DNA from: Escherichia phage vB_Eco_slurp01
Length of the DNA: 64,000 bases
Sequence record: LT603033
Direction: 5' to 3' (one strand)
The position numbers and the translations under genes are program-made. Of this stretch, positions 2,973 through 58,048 are shown one piece after another. A model generated the notes under the pieces. The model was not told the DNA's origin, made no database searches, and was given only the letters and a program-made list of their open reading frames with translations. The first letter of the stretch is position 1; every line of letters begins with the position of its first letter.

Positions 2973-3180
2973 GATGTGGTGGTGTCATGGTGTATATAAC
3001 GTGTATGTAAATGGTAGATATAAAATGTCTAGTACCTATGCAAGACGTGTTAATGCGAACAACCAAGTTGATGCTGCTTGTGAGATCATTGAGTGGTATG
3101 CTGAGTTCAATGCACCTGACTATATGTACGAAATAGTTACAATAAATGTTGTACAAATCGATACATCTTTGATACAATAA
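2965..3180 (+). CDS. hypothetical protein
   Basis: Overlapping start; 71 aa. Confidence 0.55.
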   Translation: MTKMWWCHGVYNVYVNGRYKMSSTYARRVNANNQVDAACEIIEWYAEFNAPDYMYEIVTINVVQIDTSLIQ

Positions 3181-3212: not shown

Positions 3213-3875
3213 ATGTTAGTTAATCTTAATTTCATCACTTCACCTGACTGGGCATTACGTGGAGTTTCTTTAAACTTCAAGGAAACTATGTTTGACTACA
3301 TTGGTGAGTGTACATTGGTAAATGCAACTTTTGATCCAAATCATCCGTTTTGGGCTGAAATTCATGATCCAAATGTAAACAACAATACATCTGTTATGAC
3401 TATTGTCCAGACTAAACATGCAGGTATCCTTGCAGGTTATCGACCTGCACATGCAATTGAACACTTCACTGATTACGATGTCGTGGATGAATACCCAATG
3501 ATCCATGAAGATGGAAGTCTATACACATCTGAAGACTTCCGTGCTATCTTTAATAGTACTGATGATATTCTACCAAGTGGACGTCCACGTCCTGAGTCTT
3601 ATCTTATGCATTCATCTTATGGTGTAGCAGATACGCTTGAACAGATTATGAAGAAGTACAAGAACCTAATTGAAGGTCCAGAAGAAATTGTCTTGTGCTA
3701 TCACCCAGTACTGAAGTCTGAACAACCAAAGGATGGTGGATGGCGTTGGCATAAGAATGGTGAGTATATCGGTACTAAACGAAGTAAAGAACGTTTTGAG
3801 TACTTGTATGATGAGCCAGATGTTGATGTGGTTTTGTGTTATAATTTTATTAAGGTGAAAAAGAAATGTATCTAG
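3213..3875 (+). CDS. hypothetical protein
   Basis: ATG at 3213 with GAGGA RBS; track ORF starts at TTG 3195; about 220 aa. Confidence 0.65.
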   Translation: MLVNLNFITSPDWALRGVSLNFKETMFDYIGECTLVNATFDPNHPFWAEIHDPNVNNNTSVMTIVQTKHAGILAGYRPAHAIEHFTDYDVVDEYPMIHEDGSLYTSEDFRAIFNSTDDILPSGRPRPESYLMHSSYGVADTLEQIMKKYKNLIEGPEEIVLCYHPVLKSEQPKDGGWRWHKNGEYIGTKRSKERFEYLYDEPDVDVVLCYNFIKVKKKCI

Positions 3876-5321: not shown

Positions 5322-5672
5322 ATGAAAATTATTTTATTTTTTGTATGTATGTTAATGTGTGGATTGTCATATGCTGAACCATTGGAAGGTTTAGTTTGTA
5401 CAGATGGTAATATTAAACATATCTATCAAGGTGATAGTGACAATCGAGATATTGTATATATTGATGGACAATCATATACGTTTGTTAAAGAGCATACAGT
5501 AGGCGACATTAGCTTCACTGAGTTTTCTAACGACACAGACCCTAACTTCTTAGCGTTTATTGAAGTAGATGTATATGAAGATAGTAATGGCACACAATAT
5601 GCTAAATTAGTTATGATGCGTCGTGGTGCTAAAGAAACTAGTTTTGGTGGCTTGTGTAAATATAAGGATTGA
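5322..5672 (+). CDS. secreted protein (signal peptide)
   Basis: RBS GGAGG; signal-like N-terminus ending SYA. Confidence 0.65.
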   Translation: MKIILFFVCMLMCGLSYAEPLEGLVCTDGNIKHIYQGDSDNRDIVYIDGQSYTFVKEHTVGDISFTEFSNDTDPNFLAFIEVDVYEDSNGTQYAKLVMMRRGAKETSFGGLCKYKD

Positions 5673-47683: not shown

Positions 47684-47930
47684 GCAGTTTACAAATCTTT
47701 ACAATTGCCGGTATTGACTTATTTTGTCAGTACTGGCATAATGTATTCATTGGCAGATAAGCCGTAGCCCATAGGGTGCGGGAGTGTATCTATAGAAAAA
47801 GTAGTTTATTACAGTTACAATTGTGCACCCGGTGGGTTAGCTGTTGTCATGGGGTATATTATGCCAGTACTGGATAGTGCTGTCAATACCTTTTTACTAT
47901 TCAGTACTGAAAACTATTTTTAAAAAGTAC

Positions 47931-47958
47931 TTGCAAACTATGTTTAAAGGCGTATAAT
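47931..47958 (+). promoter_or_regulatory. sigma70-like promoter driving conserved leader element
   Basis: TTGCAA + 16 bp + TATAAT preceded by AT-rich AAAACTATTTTTAAAAAGTAC. Confidence 0.55.
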
Positions 47959-47966
47959 GTTTTACA

Positions 47967-48046
47967 TCAGGACGGGGAACGAAATAAGTAACTCCCCATT
48001 AAGTAGCCCAGGAGTAAGGCACACGAAAAACTCCCCTGATAAAATA
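47967..48046 (+). ncRNA. conserved roughly 80-nt structured element (candidate small RNA/leader), copy 1
   Basis: Near-identical copy at 57363..57440, diverged copy at about 50276..50345; sits between two tandem promoters; internal complementarity. Confidence 0.35.
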
Positions 48047-48048
48047 GT

Positions 48049-48076
48049 TTGAAAATTGTTTTTAAAAGCGTATAAT
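48049..48076 (+). promoter_or_regulatory. second tandem promoter
   Basis: TTGAAA + 16 bp + TATAAT. Confidence 0.5.
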
Positions 48077-48108
48077 ACTTACATCAACTACTGAATGAGG
48101 GTTACAAA

Positions 48109-48720
48109 ATGAAAACTATCACTACTACTACTTTCGTTATGGATTTTTCTGAATTGAACGCAGAACAAAAAACGTCAGCTATCGAACTGGTTCGGGAACG
48201 TGAAAAAAACTCAAACGACAATTATTTTTCTGAAAGTGAAATTGAATACTATAAAGAAACAGTACTACCGGAATATGGCATTAATGACGCTGAAATACAA
48301 TTCAGTGGTTTTTGGTCCCAGGGTGACGGTGCATCAATCAGTACTGACCACGTTGACGCAGTGAAGTTTTTACGCAAGGTAAGAGCATTAACTAAGTATC
48401 GCTCAATCCGTCACCTGCTGAATGAAGATGATTTGGCGATGAGTGTAAAGCGTTCTCACTCTCACTACTCGCATGAGAACACTGTAAGCGGGTACATTGA
48501 ATCGGCTTACACTGATTTAACCGCAAAACAAGAAACGTTAGTTAATGAGCTTGAGGAACTACTCACTGAAACTATTCGTGAATTGTCACGCAAGTTGTAC
48601 CGTGATTTAGAGAATGCATATGAGGATCAATTCACTACTGAAAACATCGTAGCACTGATTGAGGGTAACGAGTATCAATTCAATGTTATTGATGGCGTAG
48701 TAGAATCAATCGAATATTAA
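48109..48720 (+). CDS. hypothetical protein (203 aa)
   Basis: RBS GAGGG; long clean ORF. Confidence 0.65.
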   Translation: MKTITTTTFVMDFSELNAEQKTSAIELVREREKNSNDNYFSESEIEYYKETVLPEYGINDAEIQFSGFWSQGDGASISTDHVDAVKFLRKVRALTKYRSIRHLLNEDDLAMSVKRSHSHYSHENTVSGYIESAYTDLTAKQETLVNELEELLTETIRELSRKLYRDLENAYEDQFTTENIVALIEGNEYQFNVIDGVVESIEY

Positions 48721-48732
48721 TTCAAAAAGTAC

Positions 48733-48760
48733 TGGACACTAAGCAATAAAGGCGTATAAT
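48733..48760 (+). promoter_or_regulatory. sigma70-like promoter
   Basis: TGGACA + 16 bp + TATAAT; hairpin GCGGGAA-TAG-TTCCCGC. Confidence 0.5.
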
Positions 48761-48812
48761 ACTTTATATCGAGAGCGGGAATAGTTCCCGCTACTAATGA
48801 GGAATACTACAA

Positions 48813-48977
48813 ATGAATACTTTTACCTTCGCTCAATTGAACGCCCTGGATGTATTGTCTGATGCTTTGCGGGATGCAACTGAAAGCGGTTTATTTGACA
48901 ATGTTGACATTCACCCTGATGTAATTAATAATTTTTGTGATGCTATCGCAGAAGTACTGGAAGATCTAAAAAAATAA
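48813..48977 (+). CDS. small acidic protein (54 aa)
   Basis: RBS GAGGAA; complete promoter-hairpin-RBS module upstream. Confidence 0.5.
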   Translation: MNTFTFAQLNALDVLSDALRDATESGLFDNVDIHPDVINNFCDAIAEVLEDLKK

Positions 48978-48987
48978 TAGAAAGTAC

Positions 48988-49015
48988 TTGCAATTAGTTT
49001 TTAGTACTGTATAAT
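48988..49015 (+). promoter_or_regulatory. sigma70-like promoter
   Basis: TTGCAA + 16 bp (TAGTACTG) + TATAAT; hairpin GGGGAGAA-ATGG-TTCTCCC. Confidence 0.6.
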
Positions 49016-49065
49016 AGTTTACATAGAGGGGAGAAATGGTTCTCCCTGGTAATGAGGAAAATAAA

Positions 49066-49287
49066 ATGGCTAATATCACTACTCTTTCTCAACTGGAAGC
49101 ACTGGTTAAATCTATGCGGGAACATGCAGACAATATCGGCGTAAAAGATCCAGCCGTTTGCTTCTGCGACGAAATGAATGATGATACACTGGTAATAGCA
49201 GAAGTACAAGATATTTCTAACTATTCATCGCGTTACACTGGCGGCGTAGCAAATAAAGGTGACTTCTGTTTATACCTTACCAAATAA
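49066..49287 (+). CDS. hypothetical protein
   Basis: RBS GAGGAA; 73 aa. Confidence 0.6.
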   Translation: MANITTLSQLEALVKSMREHADNIGVKDPAVCFCDEMNDDTLVIAEVQDISNYSSRYTGGVANKGDFCLYLTK

Positions 49288-49291
49288 CAAC

Positions 49292-49322
49292 GCGGGGAGA
49301 TAATAACTCCCCGTTACTTTTT
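49292..49322 (+). terminator. intrinsic terminator
   Basis: CGGGGAG-ATAATAAC-TCCCCG followed by TTACTTTTT. Confidence 0.6.
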
Positions 49323-49529
49323 CAGTACTGAATCATTTAATAGACGGATCTCGGCACCCTGTGGGTTAGTGACTGTATCGTCTTTATGTAGTAATTATGC
49401 CAGTACTGGATGCACTTGTCAACAACTATTTTTCAAATACTTTTTATTAAAATACTTGCTAATAGTTTTTAAACGCGTATAATGTTTTGCATAGGGGAGC
49501 GGTTCCCCTGGTAACTAAGGAATAAGAAA

Positions 49530-49766
49530 ATGCTTGAACAAATCAAATCAACGTCTGCTAATGTAACGGGAACGGTATCACACTTTATTGGTGATGAATC
49601 GCGGGGCGTTCCCTATTGTGCTGTACATGTAAACACTGAGGGTAACTACTGGTTTACGGTTTACGGATCATATTCATTTGGACGGCCAGGGCATCAAAAA
49701 ATTCTGGATAAAGTACAACCAACGGGTAAAAATATCACTGCCGAAATGTTTTATAAAAAATCATAA
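49530..49766 (+). CDS. hypothetical protein
   Basis: RBS AAGGAA; 78 aa. Confidence 0.6.
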   Translation: MLEQIKSTSANVTGTVSHFIGDESRGVPYCAVHVNTEGNYWFTVYGSYSFGRPGHQKILDKVQPTGKNITAEMFYKKS

Positions 49767-49850
49767 AGTACTTGATAATAGTTTTTAGTACTGTACAATA
49801 TTTTACATCGCACGGGGGAGCGGTTCCCCCTGGTAACTAAGGATAATCAA

Positions 49851-50150
49851 ATGAAAATTGCAATCATCGCCCTGGCTTTATCTGTTTCCTCTTTCGCTGT
49901 TAACGCGTCGTTAGATGTACCTAGTGAAAAATTCATTCAGTGTACTGTTGCGATGACAGATGAAAGTACTGGCGAGATTGTTTTAAAGGATTTAGAGATC
50001 CAGTCAGAAGCATTTAAAAGCGGCCCGTTCCATGAAGAAGACGAAAAAGGTAGCACGACAATTTATTACGATGTAAGTACTAAGCGTGGATCGGTCACGG
50101 TTATGGATACTGAGAAAGTAACGCACACCGGAGTAATTAACTGTTTATAA
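49851..50150 (+). CDS. secreted protein (signal peptide)
   Basis: RBS AAGGA; MKIAIIALALSVSSFAVNAS signal. Confidence 0.65.
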   Translation: MKIAIIALALSVSSFAVNASLDVPSEKFIQCTVAMTDESTGEIVLKDLEIQSEAFKSGPFHEEDEKGSTTIYYDVSTKRGSVTVMDTEKVTHTGVINCL

Positions 50151-50167
50151 TATAGTACTGAATCACT

Positions 50168-50195
50168 AGCCCACCTTAAACAGTGGGCTTTTTTG
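50168..50195 (+). terminator. intrinsic terminator
   Basis: AGCCCAC-CTTAAACA-GTGGGCT + TTTTTG. Confidence 0.7.
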
Positions 50196-50275
50196 TTTTG
50201 TAGTACTGCATACTTTAAAAATAGTTTTAAAAAAGTAGTTGACATTACCACAAAAAGGCGTAGAATGTATTACAT

Positions 50276-50345
50276 CAAGACGGGGAGCACTAAGTAGACC
50301 GCCAGTAAGTCGAACGAAAAACTGGACACGTCGATAAAACTTTGA
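50276..50345 (+). ncRNA. conserved structured element (diverged copy 3)
   Basis: AAGACGGGGAGC...CGAACGAAAAACTGG...GATAAAAC shares skeleton with 47967 and 57363 copies. Confidence 0.25.
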
Positions 50346-50389
50346 TACACTAATAAACGTAAACTAAACTTTAATTGAGGATTTATAAA

Positions 50390-50872
50390 ATGGCTAATGT
50401 AAAATCATTCCTGAAAGCACTGATTTCAAACGATACTGTTATTGCTGCTGAATTGCTGGCTGAACTGGATAACGATACAATGAAAGCGGTACGCAACAAT
50501 TTTAACATTGCGTACAGTGAAGCTAAAGAACTGCAAGCCAAAAAGGTAGCAGAACTGGAAGAACAGAAAAAAGCCCGTGAAGCAGAACTACAAGCAACAA
50601 TTGAAAGTATTCAGGCGGCAGTGTCTGGATTGGATCTGGAAGTGGTTGTAGAAATGGCACATAAAGCCCTGGCGGTTAAGTACGGTGAAGATAAGCCGGA
50701 ATCTAAACCTAAAAAATGGATTCAAGAACGTGTTACTGTAGTACTTGATAACGGTGAAGAACATTTGATTCCTGTACGCGGTAACTGCATTGCGGTAGTA
50801 CTGGACGCTATCAAAGAAAGCGGTATGACTCGCGAGGAATGGATCGAAGCTCATCGCAAAGTTGAAGCATAA
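50390..50872 (+). CDS. hypothetical protein (coiled-coil-rich)
   Basis: RBS GAGGA; E/K/A-rich heptad-like central region. Confidence 0.6.
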   Translation: MANVKSFLKALISNDTVIAAELLAELDNDTMKAVRNNFNIAYSEAKELQAKKVAELEEQKKAREAELQATIESIQAAVSGLDLEVVVEMAHKALAVKYGEDKPESKPKKWIQERVTVVLDNGEEHLIPVRGNCIAVVLDAIKESGMTREEWIEAHRKVEA

Positions 50873-50893
50873 CAATTAAAGTACTGAATCAAT

Positions 50894-50920
50894 AGCCCAC
50901 CTTAAACAGTGGGCTTTTTT
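50894..50920 (+). terminator. intrinsic terminator (second copy of 50168 element)
   Basis: AGCCCACCTTAAACAGTGGGCT + TTTTTTG. Confidence 0.7.
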
Positions 50921-51156
50921 GTGTCTATAGTATTCCAGTCCACTAGCACCGCCTAGAATCGATTCTAACGCATTAAACTGATTATCTGATACATCGCCCT
51001 AGCTGGTGGCGTTAAGGTCGTTAGAAAGCGATTGAGAGTGTTTAAAGTATTTTGCAAAAAGTAATAAAAAGTACTTGCATGATTAAGAGATTAGCGTATA
51101 ATGTTTTACATCGAAAGGGGAAACGGTTCTCCTTCCAAATCAAAGGAATCAAAACA

Positions 51157-51384
51157 ATGGCTATTATCATTACTCGCGTATCTGGTACTACTGGCAATTC
51201 TTCTACTGTTGCAGTCATTACTAACAAGGCAGGTGCGGAATTGCAAAATGCAATGAATACCTGGGCCGTTAATGAGTTCGGTCAGTGGGCAAGTGTAGCA
51301 TACATTGAAACCTATCAAGTGCCGACCATTAGTTTAACGGATCTTGGTGTGGAACGTATCCTTTGCTTGGATGAATTAAATTAA
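51157..51384 (+). CDS. hypothetical protein
   Basis: RBS AAGGAA; 75 aa. Confidence 0.6.
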   Translation: MAIIITRVSGTTGNSSTVAVITNKAGAELQNAMNTWAVNEFGQWASVAYIETYQVPTISLTDLGVERILCLDELN

Positions 51385-51469
51385 AAAAGTACTTGCAAAG
51401 TAAATCGAATAAAGTATAATACATTACATCAAGGGGAGAAATGATTCTCCCCACTACAAGGAAACTAAT

Positions 51470-51613
51470 ATGAAAACTTGTCAATGTGGTAAAAAATCTA
51501 TTACTGGTTTAAAGCGGGGCGTTGCTCTTTGCCAGTACCATTATAATTTACAAGTATGGGGTAAAGAATGGGCCGACCAGGTGGAAGCAATTAAGAAAGC
51601 AAAAAGTAAGTAA
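51470..51613 (+). CDS. small Cys-containing protein (47 aa), possible zinc ribbon
   Basis: RBS AAGGAA; CQCG...CQYH motif. Confidence 0.45.
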   Translation: MKTCQCGKKSITGLKRGVALCQYHYNLQVWGKEWADQVEAIKKAKSK

Positions 51614-51702
51614 AAATATTATCACAGTACTATTGACATAGTTTGATAGTACTGGCATAATAGATTTTATCAAGACAACATATTAATTTAAGGAATACTA
51701 AA

Positions 51703-52026
51703 ATGGCTAAAACTATCATTAACACCGTTTCCCTGGCTGCAATCCGTGCAATCAATGTTGACGGTAAACGTTGGACTGATTCATATGGCAATACTTATCA
51801 TTCTTGTCATGTAAGCGTCGAACTGGATAACGGTTTGAATGTTCTGGCGGTTGAATCATTTACTTATGGCTATGAAGATGCATATCAACAAACGGCGTTA
51901 GATCTATTAAAGGAATCAGTAGACGGGCTTAATACTGATGAAACCTCCCTTACTCGTTTGTGCAATGATCTTAATATCCCGTTGCATTGTACTGTACAGA
52001 ATGTTAAACGCAAAAAAGATCTTTAA
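51703..52026 (+). CDS. hypothetical protein (paralog of 58137..58460)
   Basis: Shared motif (K/N)RWTDS(Y/H)GNTYHSC(H/Y)VS...FTYGY...VKRKKD. Confidence 0.65.
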   Translation: MAKTIINTVSLAAIRAINVDGKRWTDSYGNTYHSCHVSVELDNGLNVLAVESFTYGYEDAYQQTALDLLKESVDGLNTDETSLTRLCNDLNIPLHCTVQNVKRKKDL

Positions 52027-52106
52027 TTAGCTTTACTTTATGCAGATACTTTGATATAGTGTCTGCATAGGGGAAAGAAATTAAATTAACTTAAGAGGAT
52101 CGTATA

Positions 52107-52376
52107 ATGAAAAATATCAGTACTTTAATCGATGCAGGTACACATGTTCGGCGGTCTATGGTTGCAACCAGTACTACAAAACAAGTAGCAAGCGGTTATC
52201 TTGTATTTGTGCACGATGGTAAACTCCTGGAACGTTCAATCAATTTTGATGTTAAAAACAATTGCCGTTTTATTATCTTTAAGCGTGAACAATATAAAAT
52301 TGATTTGCCAGCGAAGCCCATTAGCGGGGCGTACAACGTGCAATCATTGTTTGAGCGTCAACCATACACCTATTGA
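52107..52376 (+). CDS. hypothetical protein
   Basis: RBS AAGAGGA; 89 aa. Confidence 0.6.
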   Translation: MKNISTLIDAGTHVRRSMVATSTTKQVASGYLVFVHDGKLLERSINFDVKNNCRFIIFKREQYKIDLPAKPISGAYNVQSLFERQPYTY

Positions 52377-52427
52377 TCAAATCATCGTTAGTGGTCGATT
52401 TAGGCCGCTTATATTGGGGATTATACC

Positions 52428-52700
52428 ATGAACGTTAATCAAGTACTAAATGAAGTTGAAAGCATCATTAAACCAATGAAACGTATTGATGCAATGCTAA
52501 CACCGGAAGAATGCCGCCTTTATGAGCGTTACAGCGTCGAACAAGTCCAGGCGATGGCTATGGCTACCCCTGCCGTTAAACAGCCTGAGAATGCGTTACA
52601 GGACGTTACAGGGGATTATATCATTAATCCAGTACTAGGGAAGATTACACCAATCACCGAAGAAGAAAAAGACTACTTAAGCCAGTACTTAAAAGGTTAA
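52428..52700 (+). CDS. hypothetical protein
   Basis: 90 aa. Confidence 0.55.
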   Translation: MNVNQVLNEVESIIKPMKRIDAMLTPEECRLYERYSVEQVQAMAMATPAVKQPENALQDVTGDYIINPVLGKITPITEEEKDYLSQYLKG

Positions 52701-52705
52701 TTAAT

Positions 52706-52915
52706 ATGCTTACTGTACAGGATAAGATCGACATCTTAAAGGTTAATATGTATGTGATTGATGCAGATCCTGAAAAAGTATTTGCATACGATGATTCTAA
52801 TCGTAGTCCTTTTTATTGTAGTCATGTAGTTGGATACGTGCCGTTAGCGTATGTTATCGAAAGAGTGGTTGATTCAGCATACAAACATTTTTTAGAAAAT
52901 AATACTTGCAATTAG
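52706..52915 (+). CDS. hypothetical protein
   Basis: RBS AAAAGG; 69 aa. Confidence 0.55.
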   Translation: MLTVQDKIDILKVNMYVIDADPEKVFAYDDSNRSPFYCSHVVGYVPLAYVIERVVDSAYKHFLENNTCN

Positions 52916-52984
52916 TTTTTAGTACTGTATAATAGTTTACATGAAGTGGAGAAATAGTTCTCCCCACTAATTAAGGAATATGAA

Positions 52985-53131
52985 ATGAAAGCATCAAAAA
53001 AGAGTACTAATAAGAAAGCACGTTCAACTTTAGATGGGGTATTCCCTTTGCGTTTTGTGGATGAAGTGGTTTCCTACCCGCTGGGGCTTACTCCTGAGAT
53101 GGTAGAAAGTTTACGTAAATCTAAAAAATAA
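52985..53131 (+). CDS. small basic protein (48 aa)
   Basis: Promoter, hairpin and RBS AAGGAA upstream. Confidence 0.45.
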   Translation: MKASKKSTNKKARSTLDGVFPLRFVDEVVSYPLGLTPEMVESLRKSKK

Positions 53132-53212
53132 TACTTGCAATTAGTTTTTAGTACTGTATAATAGTTTACATGAAGGGGAGAAATGATTCTCCCCAAGAAC
53201 AGGAGAAATAAA

Positions 53213-53365
53213 ATGAAACAATATAATGCTCGGTTTGATGTTACTATCGGTAACGGTAAAGGTCAATTTTCTTTCAGTACTCGACGCAGTTATACAGAAA
53301 ACTTCCTGCGTAATTGTGCACTGACCGCCGCTCAAATTAAACATTATTTTCAGGCTAAAAAATGA
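53213..53365 (+). CDS. small protein (50 aa)
   Basis: RBS AGGAGAA. Confidence 0.5.
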   Translation: MKQYNARFDVTIGNGKGQFSFSTRRSYTENFLRNCALTAAQIKHYFQAKK

Positions 53366-53451
53366 AATCATTAGCTTATTACAGTTCGGCCCTGGTCGTT
53401 GCATTGATCGCGGCGTTGTTAGTAACCTATCTATTCTTTATGGTGATTTAA
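53362..53451 (+). CDS. tiny membrane peptide (29 aa)
   Basis: ATGA overlap; single hydrophobic helix. Confidence 0.3.
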   Translation: MKSLAYYSSALVVALIAALLVTYLFFMVI

Positions 53452-53589
53452 ATGAATCCTAACGGTATAATTTACAGTACTCCTAAAACGAAAGCAGACA
53501 AGGTAAACGCTAAAAAAGCGAAAGTAAAGGAGTACATCAAGCAAGGCATGACGCGAAAGGCGGCGATTCTAAAAGCTAAAAATAAATGA
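53452..53589 (+). CDS. small basic protein (45 aa)
   Basis: TAAATG junction; followed directly by hairpin/promoter element. Confidence 0.35.
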   Translation: MNPNGIIYSTPKTKADKVNAKKAKVKEYIKQGMTRKAAILKAKNK

Positions 53590-53596
53590 AAAAAGT

Positions 53597-53628
53597 GGTT
53601 GACTTCGGTCAGCCATTTTGCTATTATA
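53597..53628 (+). promoter_or_regulatory. stem-loop/promoter hybrid (PeSL-like)
   Basis: TGGTTGACTTCGGTCAGCCA + TTTTG + TATTAT. Confidence 0.55.
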
Positions 53629-53800
53629 TATTCATTGAGAGATAGCTCACTAGCCCACAGGGTGCAGGAGTGTATCTATTGTATAATGTTTGAGTACTGA
53701 AAACTATTTTTAAAAAAGTACTTGAAAACTATCTCAATTGGCGTATAATGTTTTACATCGCAAGGGGAAACGGTTTCCCCTGGTAATAAGGAAACGAATC

Positions 53801-54142
53801 ATGACTATCTCAATTGCTCAATCTAACTTTGAAAATGAAATCATCGCCCAGGTACTGCGTTTAAATGATGGTCGGGCCGAAATTAATTACGGTTTCAATT
53901 CAGGCGGTTGTGAAAACTATCAGTACTTTGTAACGGCTGATGGCGGTGTCCTGGGCATCAATACAGTTATTGTAAACATCCAAAAAATTAATTTCAATGA
54001 TCCAGACGATAGCCAGTTTTACATCACTGGCGTAGACGTGAACTATGAGGATGACTCACTAACTGATGATTACACTGGTGAGCGGTTAGAAAGTGCTTAT
54101 GGTGAAGATGATTATCAGTCAGTACCGGAAGATTTCGAATAA
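53801..54142 (+). CDS. hypothetical protein
   Basis: RBS AAGGAA; 113 aa. Confidence 0.6.
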   Translation: MTISIAQSNFENEIIAQVLRLNDGRAEINYGFNSGGCENYQYFVTADGGVLGINTVIVNIQKINFNDPDDSQFYITGVDVNYEDDSLTDDYTGERLESAYGEDDYQSVPEDFE

Positions 54143-54234
54143 TATAAAAAATAGTTTGACAATAGATTATAGTACTGTATAATAGTTTACATCAAGGGGA
54201 GAATAGTTCTCCCCACTAACAGAGAAAAAACAAA

Positions 54235-54447
54235 ATGGCTAATATCCGCACTGTACTGAAAAATGCAAAACAAGTTTTATTTTCTGATCATGATACTTTC
54301 AACAAGGATATTACTGGCGTTCGGAATATCAAAGATGTAAAAAGTGTTATGGGTATCTATTGCAATATGAAACGTGTTGGAACGTTCGGCGACAAAGTAC
54401 TATACCAGGCAGGGGATTACAATTTTACACTGACTATCATTAACTAA
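54235..54447 (+). CDS. hypothetical protein
   Basis: Promoter + GGGGAGAA-TAG-TTCTCCCC hairpin upstream; 70 aa. Confidence 0.55.
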   Translation: MANIRTVLKNAKQVLFSDHDTFNKDITGVRNIKDVKSVMGIYCNMKRVGTFGDKVLYQAGDYNFTLTIIN

Positions 54448-54530
54448 AAATATTATCACAGTACTATTGACATAGTTTGATAGTACTGACATAATAAGTT
54501 TTATCAACTACACTACTAAGGAATTAAAAA

Positions 54531-54710
54531 ATGGCTATCATCGCAAAAACTGAAATCATCGGCCTGGATTCTATCATCATGACGTTTGAAGATCAAAAAG
54601 GTATGTATGTGGTTTCCTATGGTGATTATGTTCGGGAGTATGAAACGGTAGACGAAGCCTTTGAAAGTTACATTCGCCAGGTGAATAAAGCATACGACGA
54701 CTACCGCTAA
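54531..54710 (+). CDS. small protein (59 aa)
   Basis: RBS AAGGAA; promoter TTGACA...CATAAT upstream. Confidence 0.5.
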   Translation: MAIIAKTEIIGLDSIIMTFEDQKGMYVVSYGDYVREYETVDEAFESYIRQVNKAYDDYR

Positions 54711-54809
54711 AATATATTACCAGTACTATTAAAGATATTGACAACGTTTGATAGTACTGTATAATAAGTTTTATCAACAGTAGTTAACTTAACCTAAGAG
54801 AGAAACAAA

Positions 54810-54953
54810 ATGATCGCACTGGATTCATTCATCGACGCAGTACTGGCAAAAACTGGCGAGGATCTGACCGCAGAACAATACGCAATGATCGAGCAATGCC
54901 AGCAAGACGGTAAATCGGTGAAAGATACTGTTAAGATTATCCGCAAGATGTAA
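54810..54953 (+). CDS. small protein (47 aa)
   Basis: RBS AAGAGAGA; followed by terminator hairpin. Confidence 0.45.
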   Translation: MIALDSFIDAVLAKTGEDLTAEQYAMIEQCQQDGKSVKDTVKIIRKM

Positions 54954-54959
54954 GATTAT

Positions 54960-54990
54960 AGCCCACTGGTTAACGCTGGTGGGCTTTAAT
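54960..54990 (+). terminator. intrinsic terminator-like hairpin
   Basis: AGCCCAC-TGGTTAACGC-TGGTGGGCT + TTAATT. Confidence 0.5.
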
Positions 54991-55058
54991 TCATTACCCT
55001 ATACAATGCCAGTACTAAACCGTTTATCTCCTTAGAATGCGTTACAGGACGTTTGACA

Positions 55059-55256
55059 ATGATTAGCATGAAATCAGTACAAAAACAAATAGAAACATTA
55101 TCAAAAATTAAACGTAAACAGTACTCGTTAGAATATACAATCAATGGTAACTATCATCTAATGAAAGAGAATAATTTCATTGTCATTGATGAATCATTGC
55201 AAATCATTAGTATAGTACTGAAAGCATTAATCAATGACAGAAAAAAATTAAAATAA
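55059..55256 (+). CDS. hypothetical protein
   Basis: ATG at 55059/55068; weak RBS; about 65 aa. Confidence 0.45.
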   Translation: MISMKSVQKQIETLSKIKRKQYSLEYTINGNYHLMKENNFIVIDESLQIISIVLKALINDRKKLK

Positions 55257-55587
55257 TATATTGACAATATCCTCCAGTACTGGCATAATACTTACATCAA
55301 GACGAGAACGTCACTAACCCATAGGGTGCACAAATGTAACTGTATAATATTGATCAAAAAATGATCTGATCAATACTTGATCAATTTGCGTAAAGTAGTA
55401 TAATTCTATGCAGTTGGTTAGACGAAAGGTTATGATTAGTAGTGCAAGTGTATAAAAATTTTCATGGTGTATCGTTTCGCACATATGGGGATGAATATGT
55501 GGTATCATGTGGATTGGAAAAAGTAAGAACAAGTAATATTATTGTCGCATTACAGTACTATAGTATTTTTATAATGAGGTTAAAATA
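55257..55587. promoter_or_regulatory. 330-bp non-coding control region with tandem promoters and TTGATCAA/GATC cluster
   Basis: TTGACA...CATAAT; conserved AACCCATAGGGTGCA motif; TATAAT then TTGATCAA x3 (4 GATC in about 35 bp). Confidence 0.5.
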
Positions 55588-55845
55588 ATGGCTGTAGGAT
55601 TCGCGAAAGATGGGGCCGAACAAGACGAGATTAACGCAGTGATTCAGGCCGCCGTTAACCACGCTAGAAAGCAAATTAACGCACAAATAGAATCACTGAT
55701 ACATTGCCTCGACTGCGGCGATATAATCCCTGAGAAACGACGCCAGGCCGTTAAGGGGTGTAAGTACTGCATAACTTGCCAGGAGGATCATGATAGTACT
55801 TTTAAACGTCCCCCGCGTAATTGTTGGCATAGATCTATGAGATAA
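55588..55845 (+). CDS. DksA/TraR-family C4 zinc-finger protein
   Basis: C-x2-C-G-x-x-I-P-E-x-R-R...C-x2-C pattern (CLDCGDIIPEKRRQAVKGCKYCITC); RBS GAGG. Confidence 0.6.
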   Translation: MAVGFAKDGAEQDEINAVIQAAVNHARKQINAQIESLIHCLDCGDIIPEKRRQAVKGCKYCITCQEDHDSTFKRPPRNCWHRSMR

Positions 55846-55920
55846 AAAGTATTGACAGTACTATCCAGTAGTGTTATAGTACTTACATCAAGGGGAAACA
55901 TCTTCCCCTACTAAGAGGAA

Positions 55921-56115
55921 ATGAAAATGGAAAACTTATCAAGTATTTTAGTACAAGATGATTTCGGTAATCCTGGAAGTGCTATCATTGTTCGGGGTAA
56001 TAAAGCAACATTTGTTATTGCTGGTGGACCTGTACAGCGTAGCATTAAAAATAATGCTGTTACCATTAATAATGTACGCTATCGCTTAGATAAAGAATTG
56101 ATTCATAAACTGTAA
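55921..56115 (+). CDS. hypothetical protein
   Basis: RBS AAGAGGAA; 64 aa. Confidence 0.6.
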   Translation: MKMENLSSILVQDDFGNPGSAIIVRGNKATFVIAGGPVQRSIKNNAVTINNVRYRLDKELIHKL

Positions 56116-56142
56116 TATTAATTTAATAGAGGATAACAATAA

Positions 56143-56466
56143 ATGTACATTCATACTACTATCACAAAGGAAGTCCGTTGCCAGTTCGAAAGTATTCCGG
56201 GCGTATGTTTCATCACTGGTACGTTTTCCCCTGGTGATCGTGATAATCCAGTACTGTTACAATTACGCCATCCATCATGGGATAAAGCATTTGATCTACC
56301 GTTGAATGAATTCGCAACTACTGCTGAAAAGTACATTAAAAATATTCGCGAGAATGATCGACTATTCATTAATGCTTTTAGTGATTCCGCGTTAAGCGAG
56401 ATCCACGGCGTATTGGTTGCAATCATGGAATCAATGGAGAAAACTAAATTCAAACAAGGTGAATAA
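56143..56466 (+). CDS. hypothetical protein
   Basis: RBS AGAGGA; 107 aa. Confidence 0.65.
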   Translation: MYIHTTITKEVRCQFESIPGVCFITGTFSPGDRDNPVLLQLRHPSWDKAFDLPLNEFATTAEKYIKNIRENDRLFINAFSDSALSEIHGVLVAIMESMEKTKFKQGE

Positions 56467-56549
56467 AAACTATTGACAAGATAATCTAGTACTGTATAAT
56501 AAGTTACATGAAGGGGAGAAATGATTCTCCCCACTAAGAGGAAAGAAAA

Positions 56550-56762
56550 ATGCAAGGTCAACTAATCGTTCGTAAATGGTCTGATACTAACGAAAAACCG
56601 TGGGATGTACAATACATCGGACCGGATGGGGTATCACGTTATCAGCCAGGCGTAACGCATAGTACTGAGCAATATGCCGCCGCTCACCGCGAACGCCTGT
56701 TAGAATCCATGAAACAGGGATTCTGTGAAAAATTCATTCAAGATCATTGGCTGAAAGATTAA
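56550..56762 (+). CDS. hypothetical protein
   Basis: RBS AAGAGGAA; 70 aa. Confidence 0.6.
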   Translation: MQGQLIVRKWSDTNEKPWDVQYIGPDGVSRYQPGVTHSTEQYAAAHRERLLESMKQGFCEKFIQDHWLKD

Positions 56763-56779
56763 TAGAAGGAGTACAGCTT

Positions 56780-56872
56780 ATGCAAATGAATCCGATGATT
56801 ATTGTTTTAGCTGTACTTATGATCATTCATGCAATAGTAGAAGTATTAACGCAATCAGGAGTAATAAAATGA
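56780..56872 (+). CDS. tiny membrane peptide (30 aa)
   Basis: Strong RBS AAGGAG; hydrophobic. Confidence 0.4.
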   Translation: MQMNPMIIVLAVLMIIHAIVEVLTQSGVIK

Positions 56873-57042
56873 TTCAAGTAGAATTATCAGTACTAAAAGA
56901 TCTGTTTTATCGGATTGGTACTACTGGCGAATATCCGAAGGGTGATAATGCAAAACTTTACGTATCACTCGACTTATGGCAACGCGAACAATTAGCAACG
57001 GCCTGGCGTAAAGGCAAAGCAGATAGCGAGGTGAAAGCATGA
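56869..57042 (+). CDS. small protein (57 aa)
   Basis: ATGA overlap. Confidence 0.45.
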   Translation: MIQVELSVLKDLFYRIGTTGEYPKGDNAKLYVSLDLWQREQLATAWRKGKADSEVKA

Positions 57043-57188
57043 AAGAATTCTTATTTGAAGTAGTGTTTCAAGGTGTCGGTAATAACCAACTGATTCGCTC
57101 AAGTGGTTACAATGTTAACCAGGCATGGAATAACATTAAACAAATGTACCCGAACGCTATCACATATCGCAACCCGAAAGAAGTTTAA
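57039..57188 (+). CDS. small protein (49 aa)
   Basis: ATGA overlap; followed by hairpin/promoter element. Confidence 0.45.
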   Translation: MKEFLFEVVFQGVGNNQLIRSSGYNVNQAWNNIKQMYPNAITYRNPKEV

Positions 57189-57202
57189 AAATAATTGAAA
57201 AA

Positions 57203-57235
57203 GGGATTGACTCCGGTCAGTCCCTTTGCTATTAT
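57203..57235 (+). promoter_or_regulatory. stem-loop/promoter hybrid (variant)
   Basis: GGGATTGAC-TCCG-GTCAGTCCC + TTTGC + TATTAT. Confidence 0.55.
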
Positions 57236-57362
57236 ATACGCATAGAAACAAATCAGCCCACCGGGTGCATAAATGTATCTATTATATGCTGGTGGCTAGT
57301 ACTGAAAACTATTTTTAAAAAGTACTTGCATTGTACTTAGAATCAAGTATAATGTTTTACAT

Positions 57363-57440
57363 CAGGACGGGGAACGAAACAAGTAACCCCGTTAAGTAGT
57401 CCAGGAGTAAGACATAAGAAAACCTCCCCTGATAAAATAG
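57363..57440 (+). ncRNA. conserved roughly 80-nt structured element (copy 2)
   Basis: Near-identical to 47967..48046; between tandem promoters. Confidence 0.35.
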
Positions 57441-57502
57441 TTTGACAATAGAAAGTAAACGAGTATAATACTTACATCAACCACTGATAAGGAAACATAA
57501 AA

Positions 57503-57778
57503 ATGCGGATTCTACTGACAGCTAACGAAATCGAACAAGTACTGACTACTAACCTGGAAGACTGGAAACGTGAAGCAGATATCCAGGCGGTTCAACGGCT
57601 TAACGATGAGTTAACGCCGGATGACTTAAGCAAGATTGTAGATCCTCAATTCTACGAAGATATCCACGACACCGCGTTAAGCGTCGAGGATGTACTAGAT
57701 AAGCACTACATTGATATTGATTTGCAGGTTTACGGTCGTAAAAACTTTATCACTATTCACGACATTTACAATAATTAA
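57503..57778 (+). CDS. hypothetical protein
   Basis: RBS AAGGAAA; 91 aa. Confidence 0.6.
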   Translation: MRILLTANEIEQVLTTNLEDWKREADIQAVQRLNDELTPDDLSKIVDPQFYEDIHDTALSVEDVLDKHYIDIDLQVYGRKNFITIHDIYNN

Positions 57779-57865
57779 GTATTGACAAAGTATCTTAGTA
57801 CTGTATAATAGTTTACATCAAGCGAGGGGAATGGTTCCCCTCCTAACTAAAAGAGAGAAATAAAA

Positions 57866-58048
57866 ATGGCTAAGTGCACTATCTGCAAGAAAGAAATAGT
57901 ATTAGTTCCAAGTGCCCGTGAACGTGCCGCTCGGTTCGGTGGCAAAGCGTCAGACTATACAAAAATGTTTACTACCCATACAGCTTGCCAGGTAGCAAAA
58001 CGTTCACAAGAAAGCGTAGAATTAATGCGTAAACTTTCCAAAAAATAA
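57866..58048 (+). CDS. small Cys-containing protein, possible zinc ribbon
   Basis: CTIC...HTAC pattern; 60 aa. Confidence 0.55.
   Translation: MAKCTICKKEIVLVPSARERAARFGGKASDYTKMFTTHTACQVAKRSQESVELMRKLSKK

What the first reader, a model, noticed from the sequence alone, without database searches (positions are those of the whole stretch)
47967..57440. Conserved roughly 80-nt structured element between tandem promoters (candidate small RNA or cis-regulatory leader), three copies
CAGGACGGGGAACGAAA(T/C)AAGTAAC(T)CCCC...CCAGGAGTAAG(G/A)CA...AAAA(C)CTCCCCTGATAAAATAG occurs at 47967..48046 and 57363..57440 with about 90% identity, and in diverged form at about 50276..50345. Each copy lies directly downstream of a full promoter and directly upstream of a second promoter that drives the next protein gene. 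There is no ORF and there is internal complementarity (GGGGAAC...TCCCC; CAGGAG...CTCCCCTG). The arrangement suggests an independently transcribed short RNA or a regulatory leader.
Basis: partly seen in the sequence, partly recalled or inferred. Interest (0 to 1): 0.6.

Follow-up and report, generated by a model that had tools for sequence, protein, structure and literature searches.

The report
Conserved pseudoknotted early-leader RNA of phages
The three repeats are real copies of a folded, non-coding RNA that starts the first transcripts of this giant E. coli phage; the same RNA lies between the A1 and A2 promoters of phage T7 and in hundreds of other phages, it matches no RNA family in Rfam, and its function is unknown.

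Summary
There are exactly three copies on the + strand: A 47964-48040, B 50272-32, C 57359-57433. Each begins 2-8 nt after the predicted start of a strong sigma-70-type promoter. None has a conserved ORF, tRNA or Rfam match.

The window is an Asteriusvirus jumbo coliphage, and the copies lie in its terminal-repeat early region.

The element is not private to this phage:
- It is about 90% identical in unrelated phi92-like phages.
- Its core recurs in Vequintavirinae, Munch-like and Erwinia jumbo phages, about 50-kb Vibrio podophages, and 587 records that are mostly T7-like.
- In T7 it is nt 498-595, the interval from the A1 start to the A2 -35.

Covariation supports a defined fold:
- An H-type pseudoknot of a 3-bp helix (G-N-C/G-N'-C) and a 4-5-bp helix.
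- An invariant UAAGUAG strand and an A-rich loop NNACGAAAAA.
- A closing helix that clamps the core. It makes a three-way junction here and a loop-to-3' pseudoknot in T7-likes.

G·U pairs fit only the transcribed strand.

The function is inferred. My best guess (about 0.3) is a put-like nascent RNA that acts in cis on host RNA polymerase. The rivals are a trans-acting decoy or aptamer, a riboswitch, and a 5' stabiliser. It is a candidate new RNA family.

The parts
47931..47958 (+). Copy A: upstream promoter (TTGCAA-16-TATAAT), preceded by the A/T-rich stretch 47903-47930. The predicted start is about 47964-47966.
   Evidence: The start site is inferred from the spacing.
47964..48040 (+). Copy A: the whole structured leader domain, from the predicted 5' end to the end of closing helix P1.
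   Evidence: The nested fold scores -19 kcal/mol, z = -2.1.
47966..47971 (+). Copy A: P1 5' strand AUCAGG. It pairs with 48035-48040 (CCUGAU).
   Evidence: (shuffle p = 0.02).
47974..47997 (+). Copy A: hairpin P2 (GGGGAAC...CUCCCC). It is variable or absent in other members.
48000..48006 (+). Copy A: invariant single strand UAAGUAG. Its last G begins helix P4.
   Evidence: these columns are invariant in 36 distinct sequences.
48006..48008 (+). Copy A: P4 5' strand GCC. It pairs with GGC at 48018-48020 and crosses P3, which makes the pseudoknot.
   Evidence: the middle pair is AU in 26 sequences, UA in 6, CG in 3 and other in 1.
48011..48014 (+). Copy A: P3 5' strand GGAG. It pairs with CUCC at 48031-48034.
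   Evidence: CG/GC/UA and UA/AU pair types.
48021..48030 (+). Copy A: conserved A-rich loop L3, ACACGAAAAA.
48035..48040 (+). Copy A: P1 3' strand CCUGAU.
48049..48076 (+). Copy A: second promoter (TTGAAA-16-TATAAT), which drives gene 48109-48720 (203 aa, PHROG of unknown function).
50239..50266 (+). Copy B: upstream promoter (TTGACA-16-TAGAAT).
50272..50332 (+). Copy B: short form without hairpin P2. P1 is GACG 50279-50282 with CGUC 50329-50332. UAAGUAG is at 50291-50297. P4 is GAC 50297-50299 with GUC 50309-50311. P3 is CCAG 50302-50305 with CUGG 50322-50325. L3 is 50312-50321. It serves as the 5' leader of gene 50390-50872.
57326..57353 (+). Copy C: upstream promoter (TTGCAT-16-TATAAT).
57359..57433 (+). 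Copy C: full form. P1 is 57361-57366 with 57428-57433. Hairpin P2 is 57368-57391. UAAGUAG is at 57393-57399. P4 is GUC 57399-57401 with GAC 57411-57413. P3 is GGAG 57404-57407 with CUCC 57424-57427. L3 is AUAAGAAAAC at 57414-57423.
   Evidence: (z = -3.0).
57442..57469 (+). Copy C: second promoter (TTGACA-16-TATAAT, 12/12), which drives gene 57503-57778 (91 aa, PHROG of unknown function).

Best explanation
What it is (shown). The three copies belong to a widespread family of structured leader RNAs that has no match in Rfam and that I found described in no paper searched. The RNA forms the extreme 5' end of transcripts from strong host-polymerase (sigma-70-type) early promoters. It occurs in virulent phages of Enterobacterales and Vibrio, and phage T7 nt 498-595 (A1 start to A2 -35) is the homologue.

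The core is about 37-40 nt and is an H-type pseudoknot. An invariant UAAGUAG leads into helix P4 (G-N-C with G-N'-C). Helix P3 (4-5 bp) has its 5' strand inside the P4 loop. Between the 3' strands of P4 and P3 lies a conserved A-rich loop, NNACGAAAAA. A closing helix P1 clamps the core. In this phage P1 joins the first nucleotides of the transcript to the sequence just after P3, which gives a three-way junction with an optional hairpin P2. In T7-like phages the 5' strand of P1 sits in the loop of an extra hairpin, which gives a second pseudoknot.

How it most likely works (inferred, about 0.3). The RNA folds as it leaves the polymerase and acts in cis on that same host RNA polymerase, as the put RNA of phage HK022 does. 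That would make early transcription resistant to pausing and termination across the leading, first-entering end of the genome. No phage protein would be needed.

Shown: homology, fold, strand, position at the 5' end, and distribution. Inferred: the transcription start, binding to polymerase, and any effect on elongation.
For: Homology.
- Copy B's core hits phiA1122 at 553-587.
- The phiA1122 and T7 leaders align over their whole length.
- T7 promoters are annotated at 498, 626 and 750.
- 587 phage records match the T7-type leader.
- The A/C type is about 90% identical in Justusliebigvirus.
- Further members occur in UPEC06, Hallingskeid and Munch, a 366-kb contig, LIMElight and LIMEzero, and Vibrio phages.

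Fold.
- In 36 distinct cores, 96.9% of cells are paired, against 15-37% for slid partners. The covariation score is 0.428 against 0.133, reached by 0 of 500 shuffles.
- The middle pair of P4 is AU in 26 sequences, UA in 6 and CG in 3.
- In 31 T7-like sequences P1, the extra hairpin and P3 are 89.7% paired, against 16-35% for slid partners. Six different complementary P1 pairs occur.
- P1 in the junction-type members was tested by shuffling. It changes in a compensatory way in the Vibrio phages.

Strand. G·U pairs occur in 13 of 36 sequences at one P3 position.

Not an UP element. The spacing to the next promoter varies.

For the put-like reading.
- The element always lies directly after a strong early promoter and no terminator follows it.
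- Its invariant single-stranded nucleotides are the same in phages of many host genera, which fits a universal target such as RNA polymerase.
- Terminator-like sites lie downstream of the copies (about 49292, 50894 and 58974 among others).
- putL likewise begins at +3 of its transcript, is about 70 nt long, contains a minor-groove triplex and needs no protein (PMC9378689).
Against: There is no experimental evidence on function. The fold is not that of put, which has two stem-loops and no pseudoknot, and there is no sequence similarity to it.

A strong second promoter directly after copies A and C, and after the T7 element, makes transcripts that lack the element. That is odd if modified polymerase is needed for the downstream genes. 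Nearly every small gene in this region has its own promoter, so the need for antitermination is not evident. In L064 a boxA follows the element, which suggests that a separate antitermination signal is still used.

The promoter-plus-element module moves between unrelated phages. That fits a self-contained RNA product equally well.
Confidence: 0.33

Rival explanations
1. A trans-acting RNA decoy or aptamer for a conserved host protein such as RNase E, Hfq, ribosomal protein S1 or a Nus factor. The strongest early promoters flood the cell with a stable, compact RNA. Either as a leader or after trimming back to helix P1, the RNA sequesters or redirects that protein at the first moment of infection.
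For: The promoter plus element behaves as a self-contained module. It is followed by an independent promoter for the next gene and has been exchanged between unrelated phage families. The RNA has invariant exposed nucleotides in a rigid covarying scaffold and is present in three copies in one genome. Both ends are closed by P1. The 3' flank is very A/U-rich, which would suit endonucleolytic release; that last step is an inference.
Against: No terminator or recognisable processing site defines a 3' end. No partner is known. T7-likes carry a single copy, which is little for titrating an abundant protein.
Confidence: 0.2
2. [quoted passage not shown] It would keep a ToxN/CptN/TenpN-type endoribonuclease inhibited after the phage shuts off host transcription.
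For: The core has the size and topology described for type III antitoxins. Those are hairpin-type pseudoknots of 31-46 nt with 3-4-bp stems (PMC3401426). They carry a conserved adenosine stretch placed for A-minor contacts with stem 1 (PMC12283969). There is a precedent for phage RNA mimicry (PMC3475682). Immediate-early expression and horizontal mobility suit an anti-defence function.
Against: The element is never in tandem repeats and never lies next to a toxin gene. The downstream proteins give no toxin-family match in Pfam or PHROGs. No similar sequence was found in 5,426 E. coli genomes or 72,556 plasmids. Type III antitoxins are highly diverse, whereas this core is nearly invariant in phages of many host genera. 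That argues for a universal target.
Confidence: 0.1
3. A riboswitch-like sensor: the pseudoknot is an aptamer for a small molecule and tunes early transcription or mRNA fate.
For: The conservation pattern is that of an aptamer, with covarying helices around about 19 invariant positions in 42 columns. An H-type pseudoknot with an A-rich third loop is the topology of several known pseudoknot aptamers (my own knowledge). The element lies in a 5' leader.
Against: There is no match to any Rfam riboswitch model, even at E up to 10. There is no expression platform: no terminator and no helix that sequesters a ribosome-binding site. An independent promoter often separates the element from the gene.
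Confidence: 0.1
4. Only a 5'-terminal stabiliser: a structured 5' end that protects early mRNA from attack by RppH and RNase E, with no specific partner.
For: Pairing starts 2-8 nt from the predicted 5' end in all junction-type members, and at about +2 in T7 through its first hairpin. The leaders of neighbouring promoters in related phages also begin with hairpins.
Against: A simple hairpin would be enough. This reading does not explain the invariant loop and junction nucleotides, the two pseudoknots, or the conservation of the same core across very different phages.
Confidence: 0.1
5. A small self-cleaving ribozyme in the leader.
For: It is a compact, doubly pseudoknotted fold with invariant unpaired nucleotides. 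Its hairpin-loop-to-downstream pairing recalls the pistol ribozyme (my own knowledge). Small ribozymes are often associated with phages.
Against: There is no match to any ribozyme family in Rfam. The architecture differs from the known classes, and no cleavage site can be named.
Confidence: 0.05
6. A DNA-level feature only: a spacer or UP element of tandem promoters, or a recombination linker like the T4 promoter-early stem-loop cassettes, with no function for the RNA.
For: The A-tract lies upstream of the next -35 in T7. The edges of the sequence shared between phage families fall at the promoters that flank the element.
Against: Compensatory changes occur in four helices, including two that cross. 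G·U pairs fit one strand only. The spacing to the next promoter varies.
Confidence: 0.03

Closest known systems
Phage T7 early leader between promoters A1 and A2 (nt 498-595), and its counterparts in T3-, K1F-, KP32- and LIMElight-type Autographiviridae
   Same: It is homologous over the whole length. It shares the 5' start AUC(G/A)(A/G)G..GGGA, the UAAGUAG strand, helices P4 and P3, the loop UAAGNCNNACGAAAA, and pairing of the sequence after P3 back to upstream sequence. It also follows directly after a very strong sigma-70 promoter near the leading genome end.
   Different: T7-likes have an additional 5' hairpin, and an extra hairpin whose loop supplies the 5' strand of P1, which makes a second pseudoknot. 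The window's copies use the first nucleotides of the transcript for P1, which makes a three-way junction. In T7 the 3' strand of P1 is the RNA copy of the A2 -35 hexamer. I found no paper that assigns a structure or function to this T7 interval.
HK022 put RNAs (putL, putR): cis-acting antiterminator and anti-pausing RNAs
   Same: They are also nascent phage RNAs just downstream of strong early promoters. They are about 70 nt, folded from about +3 of the transcript, contain a minor-groove triplex, and need no phage protein (PMC9378689).
   Different: put has two stem-loops and no pseudoknot, and there is no sequence similarity. put belongs to a temperate lambdoid phage. Binding to RNA polymerase is untested here.
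Type III toxin-antitoxin antitoxin RNAs (ToxI, CptI, TenpI) and the phage mimic pseudo-ToxI
   Same: They are hairpin-type pseudoknots of similar size and stem lengths, with a conserved run of adenosines. There is a precedent for a phage RNA acting as a mimic.
   Different: They occur as tandem repeats next to a toxin gene and a terminator, and they are very diverse in sequence. The element here is single, has no toxin neighbour, and is almost invariant across phages of many hosts.
T4 promoter-early stem-loop (PeSL) cassettes (named from my own knowledge)
   Same: They are repeated early-promoter-plus-structure modules between small early genes, and they mark the boundaries of gene shuffling. 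Here a 531-nt cassette is 92% identical in an unrelated phage family.
   Different: PeSLs are simple stem-loops thought to act as recombination substrates. Here the RNA fold itself is under selection, as shown by the pseudoknots and the invariant loops.
T4 gene 32 mRNA leader pseudoknot (named from my own knowledge)
   Same: It is a small H-type pseudoknot at the 5' end of a phage mRNA leader.
   Different: It is the nucleation site for autoregulation by one phage protein on one gene. The element here is shared by phages that have few proteins in common, and it precedes unrelated genes.

Membership tests
T7-type A1 leader RNA (the family defined here) | Core sequence: UAAGUAG-N-C ... (N)UAAG-N'-C-NN-A(C)GAAAA. 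| tested here: met
   All three window copies score 49-50 bits (E about 1e-12) against the core model built from 36 distinct members. The model included the window copies, so this is partly by construction. The independent support is the blastn hit of copy B to phiA1122.
T7-type A1 leader RNA (the family defined here) | Helices P3 and P4 form an H-type pseudoknot and show covariation. | tested here: met
   Copy A has GCC/GGC and GGAG/CUCC, copy B has GAC/GUC and CCAG/CUGG, and copy C has GUC/GAC and GGAG/CUCC.
T7-type A1 leader RNA (the family defined here) | The sequence just 3' of P3 pairs back to upstream sequence (helix P1). | tested here: met
   The support for copy B alone is weak (4 bp, shuffle p = 0.09).
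T7-type A1 leader RNA (the family defined here) | The element starts within a few to about 60 nt of the start of a strong sigma-70-type early promoter. | tested here: met
   Consensus scans and annotated promoters. The transcription starts in the window are inferred.
HK022 put antiterminator RNA | Two stem-loops joined by one nucleotide, with the put consensus. | tested here: not met
   The fold here is a pseudoknot inside a junction. The put architecture is as described in PMC9378689.
HK022 put antiterminator RNA | Lies in the nascent transcript downstream of an early promoter and upstream of terminators. | tested here: inconclusive
   The position after the promoter is met. Terminator-like sites lie 0.6-1.6 kb downstream, but most genes there have their own promoters.
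HK022 put antiterminator RNA | Binds the beta' zinc-binding domain and suppresses pausing and termination in cis. | not testable with these tools
   This needs in vitro transcription or cryo-EM.
Type III toxin-antitoxin antitoxin RNA or phage pseudo-antitoxin | Hairpin-type pseudoknot of 31-46 nt with short stems and an A-rich stretch. | tested here: met
   The core is 37-40 nt, with a 3-bp P4, a 4-5-bp P3 and the A-rich loop L3. This topology is generic.
Type III toxin-antitoxin antitoxin RNA or phage pseudo-antitoxin | Tandem direct repeats upstream of a terminator and a ToxN/CptN/TenpN toxin gene, or sequence similarity to such an antitoxin. | tested here: not met
   There is one unit per locus. 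The downstream proteins belong only to PHROGs of unknown function and have no significant Pfam match. No similar sequence exists in E. coli genomes or plasmids.
Type III toxin-antitoxin antitoxin RNA or phage pseudo-antitoxin | Neutralises a cognate endoribonuclease. | not testable with these tools
   This needs co-expression or plating assays.
Known riboswitch classes | Match to a curated covariance model. | tested here: not met
   No Rfam 15 match at gathering score, or at E up to 10 or 5, for the window copy or for the T7, K1F and LIMElight leaders.
Known riboswitch classes | An expression platform: a terminator or a helix that sequesters the ribosome-binding site, coupled to the aptamer. 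| tested here: not met
   No terminator-like site follows any copy, and a promoter or a long spacer separates the element from the gene.
lambda nut / rrn boxA-boxB antitermination site | A boxA (CGCUCUUUAACAA-like) next to a hairpin. | tested here: not met
   No boxA lies near the three copies. One distant member, L064, has boxA about 20 nt downstream.
tRNA / tmRNA | Cloverleaf recognised by ARAGORN. | tested here: not met
   No tRNA or tmRNA genes in the window.
Small self-cleaving ribozymes (hammerhead, twister, pistol, hatchet, HDV-like) | Match to the family model; site-specific self-cleavage. | tested here: not met
   No Rfam match. Cleavage itself cannot be tested here.

The most novel reading that the evidence does not exclude
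The element is a new functional class of phage RNA: a nearly universal, protein-independent pseudoknot made as the first product of infection by T7-like, phi92-like, rV5-like and several jumbo phages. It would reprogram or disarm one conserved host machine or immune nuclease in a way that is neither put-like antitermination nor any known riboswitch or antitoxin. It would have gone unrecognised in the A1 leader of T7, one of the most used transcription templates.
Probability: 0.35. Interest if true: 0.85.

Novelty: new variant of a known kind. Interest (0 to 1): 0.7.

Why it matters
If the fold and its conservation hold up, the first RNA made by host polymerase in T7 carries a doubly pseudoknotted domain that no one appears to have catalogued. 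The same is true of several jumbo and 140-kb coliphages used in therapy collections.

The question becomes directly testable in T7, where genetics, in vitro transcription from A1 and genome-entry assays already exist. The tests would ask whether the RNA changes polymerase processivity, blocks a nuclease, or senses a ligand.

The result would matter in three ways:
- It would add an RNA-only step to the host-takeover programme.
- It would explain why promoter-plus-leader modules travel between unrelated phages.
- It would bear on engineered constructs that use A1-type promoters with or without the native leader.

Tried and rejected
Readings tested and rejected:
- tRNA or tmRNA: none found.
- Any Rfam family: none. 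The only weak hit was Methylobacterium-1 at E = 0.69, which covers the promoter.
- Small protein: the ORF 47957-48052 starts in the -10 box and is not conserved in copy C.
- Origin in or mimicry of a host sequence: no match in E. coli genomes or plasmids.
- UP element for the second promoter: rejected because the spacing to the next promoter varies from overlap to about 50 nt or to no promoter at all.
- Composite nut-like site: no boxA near the copies.
- CsrA-type GGA sites, a hammerhead-like core, similarity to the 3' end of 16S rRNA, and three-frame stop codons. I considered these by eye and dropped them, because the motifs are not kept in copy B or in T7-likes, or gave no BLAST support.

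Searches that led nowhere:
- The first IMG/VR pattern scan gave 26 chance matches out of 28.
They yielded only three true phage contigs and no bacterial member. Absence from bacteria is therefore not established.
- The core model did not recover the Vibrio members at E up to 1.
- Literature searches by sequence and by topic found no description of the element.

Full report
**1. The observation**

The three copies are real. Copy A (47964-48040), copy C (57359-57433) and the shorter, diverged copy B (50272-50332) all lie on the + strand.
- Two diagnostic motifs each occur three times in the window, against 0.11 and 0.01 expected by chance.
- A covariance model of the core finds exactly three strong matches, at 49-50 bits and E about 1e-12. 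One further weak match looks like chance.
- Each copy follows a sigma-70-type promoter. Pairing begins 2-8 nt after the predicted start.
- A and C are followed by a second, near-consensus promoter and then a gene. B has only a 9/12 match there and is simply the leader of gene 50390-50872.
- There is no tRNA, no Rfam match and no conserved ORF.

**2. Where the window comes from**

The region is 96-99% identical to Asteriusvirus jumbo coliphages such as A4, BF17, phAPEC6, PBECO4 and G17. In BF17 the three copies lie 3.7, 6.7 and 14 kb from the start of the record. In vB_Ec-M-J the matches at about 3.7 and 6.7 kb are annotated as direct terminal repeat. The surrounding region is a dense array of small genes, nearly all with their own consensus promoter. 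This is an early region at a genome end.

**3. The element is not private to this phage**

- The A/C type is present at about 90% identity in Justusliebigvirus (phi92-like, about 145 kb), again in the order promoter, element, promoter, gene.
- Copy B's core matched T7-like Yersinia phages at 553-587. It also matched Munch-like and Erwinia jumbo phages and a member of the Vequintavirinae.
- Reading those loci showed homology over the whole leader.
- In T7 the promoters are annotated at 498 (A1), 626 (A2) and 750 (A3). The homologue runs from 498 to 595, with UAAGUAG at 551-557.
- A blastn search with the T7-type leader finds 587 phage records, mostly Autographiviridae of Escherichia, Klebsiella, Salmonella, Yersinia, Citrobacter and others.
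- Pattern scans of IMG/VR added about 60 distinct sequences.
- LIMElight, LIMEzero and a group of about 50-kb Vibrio podophages also carry the element.
- No counterpart was found in E. coli genomes or in plasmids.
- The bacterial-genome and metagenome scans were swamped by chance matches. They do not settle whether bacteria carry the element.

**4. The fold**

Four helices are supported.

*P3* is a 4-5-bp hairpin stem around a conserved 15-17-nt loop. The stem varies in a compensatory way:
- CCUG/CAGG in T7.
- CUUG/CAAG in L046 and UPEC06.
- CCAG/CUGG in copy B, Munch and L064.
- GGAG/CUCC in copies A and C.
- GUCAUA/UAUGAC in the Vibrio phages.

*P4* pairs the G-N-C that ends UAAGUAG-N-C with the G-N'-C of the loop motif UAAG-N'-C. 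Its middle pair is AU in 26 distinct sequences, UA in 6, CG in 3 and unpaired in 1. The changes arose independently in T7-likes, in Asteriusvirus (A against C) and in the LIME phages.

P4 and P3 cross, so the core is an H-type pseudoknot. Its loops are 1-2 nt, 3-4 nt ((A)UAA) and 10 nt (NNACGAAAAA). On 36 distinct cores, 96.9% of cells pair, against 15-37% when partners are slid. The covariation score is 0.428 against 0.133, reached by 0 of 500 shuffles.

*P1* pairs the sequence just after P3 with upstream sequence.
- In the window this is AUCAGG/CCUGAU (A, C) or GACG/CGUC (B).
- Other junction-type members use GACGG/CCGUC, CGGC/GCCG (GUCG), CCGAA/UUCGG and GUCAG/CUGAC.
- Within the Vibrio phages there is a compensatory change to GUCGG/CCGAC.

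In T7-likes the 5' strand of P1 lies in the loop of an *extra hairpin*, which itself covaries.
- The pairs are GUCAA/UUGAC (the A2 -35 in T7), GUCAUC/GAUGAC, GUCGGU/ACCGAC, GAUUAG/CUAAUC, GUCAC/GUGAC and CUCAAC/GUUGA.
- On 31 distinct sequences, 89.7% of cells pair, against 16-35% for slid partners.

G·U pairs at one P3 position occur in 13 of 36 sequences. They fit only the transcribed strand.

The counts rest on related sequences, and I chose the structures after seeing the sequences. They show strong support rather than a formal probability.

**5. What the anatomy excludes**

- *A purely DNA-level role is unlikely.* This covers an UP element, a promoter spacer or a recombination linker. Crossing helices covary, G·U pairs are strand-specific, and the distance to the next promoter is not fixed.
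- *A separate small transcription unit is not indicated.* No terminator-like site follows any copy. As made, the RNA is the 5' end of a longer transcript.
- *The element travels as a module.* A 531-nt stretch (57347-57873: the element, the second promoter and the 91-aa gene) is 92% identical in the phi92-like phage muut. Two other phi92-like phages share only the 132-140 nt of element plus second promoter, in front of a different gene.

**6. Mechanism (inferred)**

Four facts must be explained:
- The position at the very start of transcripts from the strongest early promoters.
- The location at the genome end that enters first.
- A rigid fold that displays invariant nucleotides.
- Near-identity of those nucleotides in phages of many host genera that share few proteins.

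The last point argues for a target present in all these hosts.

I rank first (about 0.3) a put-like action. The nascent RNA would bind the polymerase that made it and make early transcription resistant to pausing and termination. HK022 putL is the precedent:
- It begins at +3 of the PL transcript.
- It is about 70 nt long.
- It contains a minor-groove triplex.
- It needs no protein (PMC9378689).

Three points count against this reading. The fold is different. A second promoter right after the element makes transcripts that lack it. Most genes here have their own promoters.

The rivals are:
- A trans-acting decoy for a host protein (0.2).
- A mimic of a type III antitoxin (0.1). The topology and the adenosine run fit the descriptions, and the precedent is. 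However, there are no repeats, no toxin gene and far too little sequence diversity.
- A riboswitch (0.1). The conservation is aptamer-like, but there is no expression platform and no Rfam match.
- A plain 5' stabiliser (0.1).
- A ribozyme (0.05).
- DNA only (0.03).

**7. Comparison and novelty**

The closest known thing is the T7 A1-A2 interval itself. I found no paper that describes a structure or role for it. The library searched lacks much of the older subscription literature, so an early description cannot be excluded.

No Rfam 15 family matches the window copy or the T7, K1F and LIMElight leaders. I therefore treat it as a candidate new RNA family. It works, at a guess, like known phage leader RNAs, but it is a member of none of them.

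**8. Verdict**

It is not a local repeat. It is the local form of a widespread, doubly pseudoknotted immediate-early leader RNA shared with phage T7. What it is and how it folds are well supported. What it does is open and directly testable.

Noticed in passing
window 47714-47800, 53599-53690, 57207-57290 (+); inverted copy and minus-strand promoter at 47827-47886: There is a second repeated promoter-proximal non-coding unit: a promoter (TTGACT-17-TATTAT or CATAAT) followed by ..TAGCCCAC(N)GGGTGCAGGAGTGTATCTAT. At 53592-53619 and 57200-57227 the -35 box sits inside a 12-bp hairpin. Upstream of copy A the motif recurs inverted, facing a minus-strand promoter (47886-47858), so a convergent or antisense RNA pair is possible. 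Part of this is also present upstream of the element in phage Munch (L034 about 3290-3390).
   Followed up: partly
window 57347-57873 versus L004 (phage muut) 2993-3518: A 531-nt cassette (element C, the second promoter and the 91-aa gene) is 92% identical between this jumbo phage and a phi92-like phage. Phages outra and EmilieFrey share only 132-140 nt (element plus second promoter). The breakpoints fall at promoters, which suggests module shuffling between unrelated phage families.
   Followed up: partly
window 50168-50189 and 50894-50915 (+): Two identical terminator-like hairpins (AGCCCACCTTAAACAGTGGGCT followed by a T run) bracket the copy-B unit. That unit therefore reads terminator, promoter, element, gene, terminator.
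   Followed up: no
window 5482-5494 (-): An exact 13-mer of the rrn-type boxA consensus (TGCTCTTTAACAA) occurs here. About 0.002 such matches are expected by chance. It seems to lie inside coding sequence and has no obvious promoter context.
   Followed up: partly
L033 (phiA1122) about 628-700; T7 about 640-720: The interval between A2 and A3 may hold a decayed paralogue. GUCAACC lies upstream and GGUUGAC (the A3 -35 region) downstream, and they are complementary. Between them are UUAAGCGCACC, a small hairpin (CACC/GGUG) and an A-rich run. The core model does not detect it. I read this by eye and did not test it.
   Followed up: no
L064 4040-4190 (5.9-kb viral contig): In this distant member the element is followed about 20 nt later by a boxA (CGCTCTTTAACAA) instead of a promoter.
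   Followed up: no
L004 (muut) 3007-3092: Compared with the other phi92-like copies, muut has one extra G in the 5' G-run and one extra C in the 3' C-run of the element (GGGGG ... CCCCC). This is either a paired insertion or homopolymer noise.
   Followed up: no
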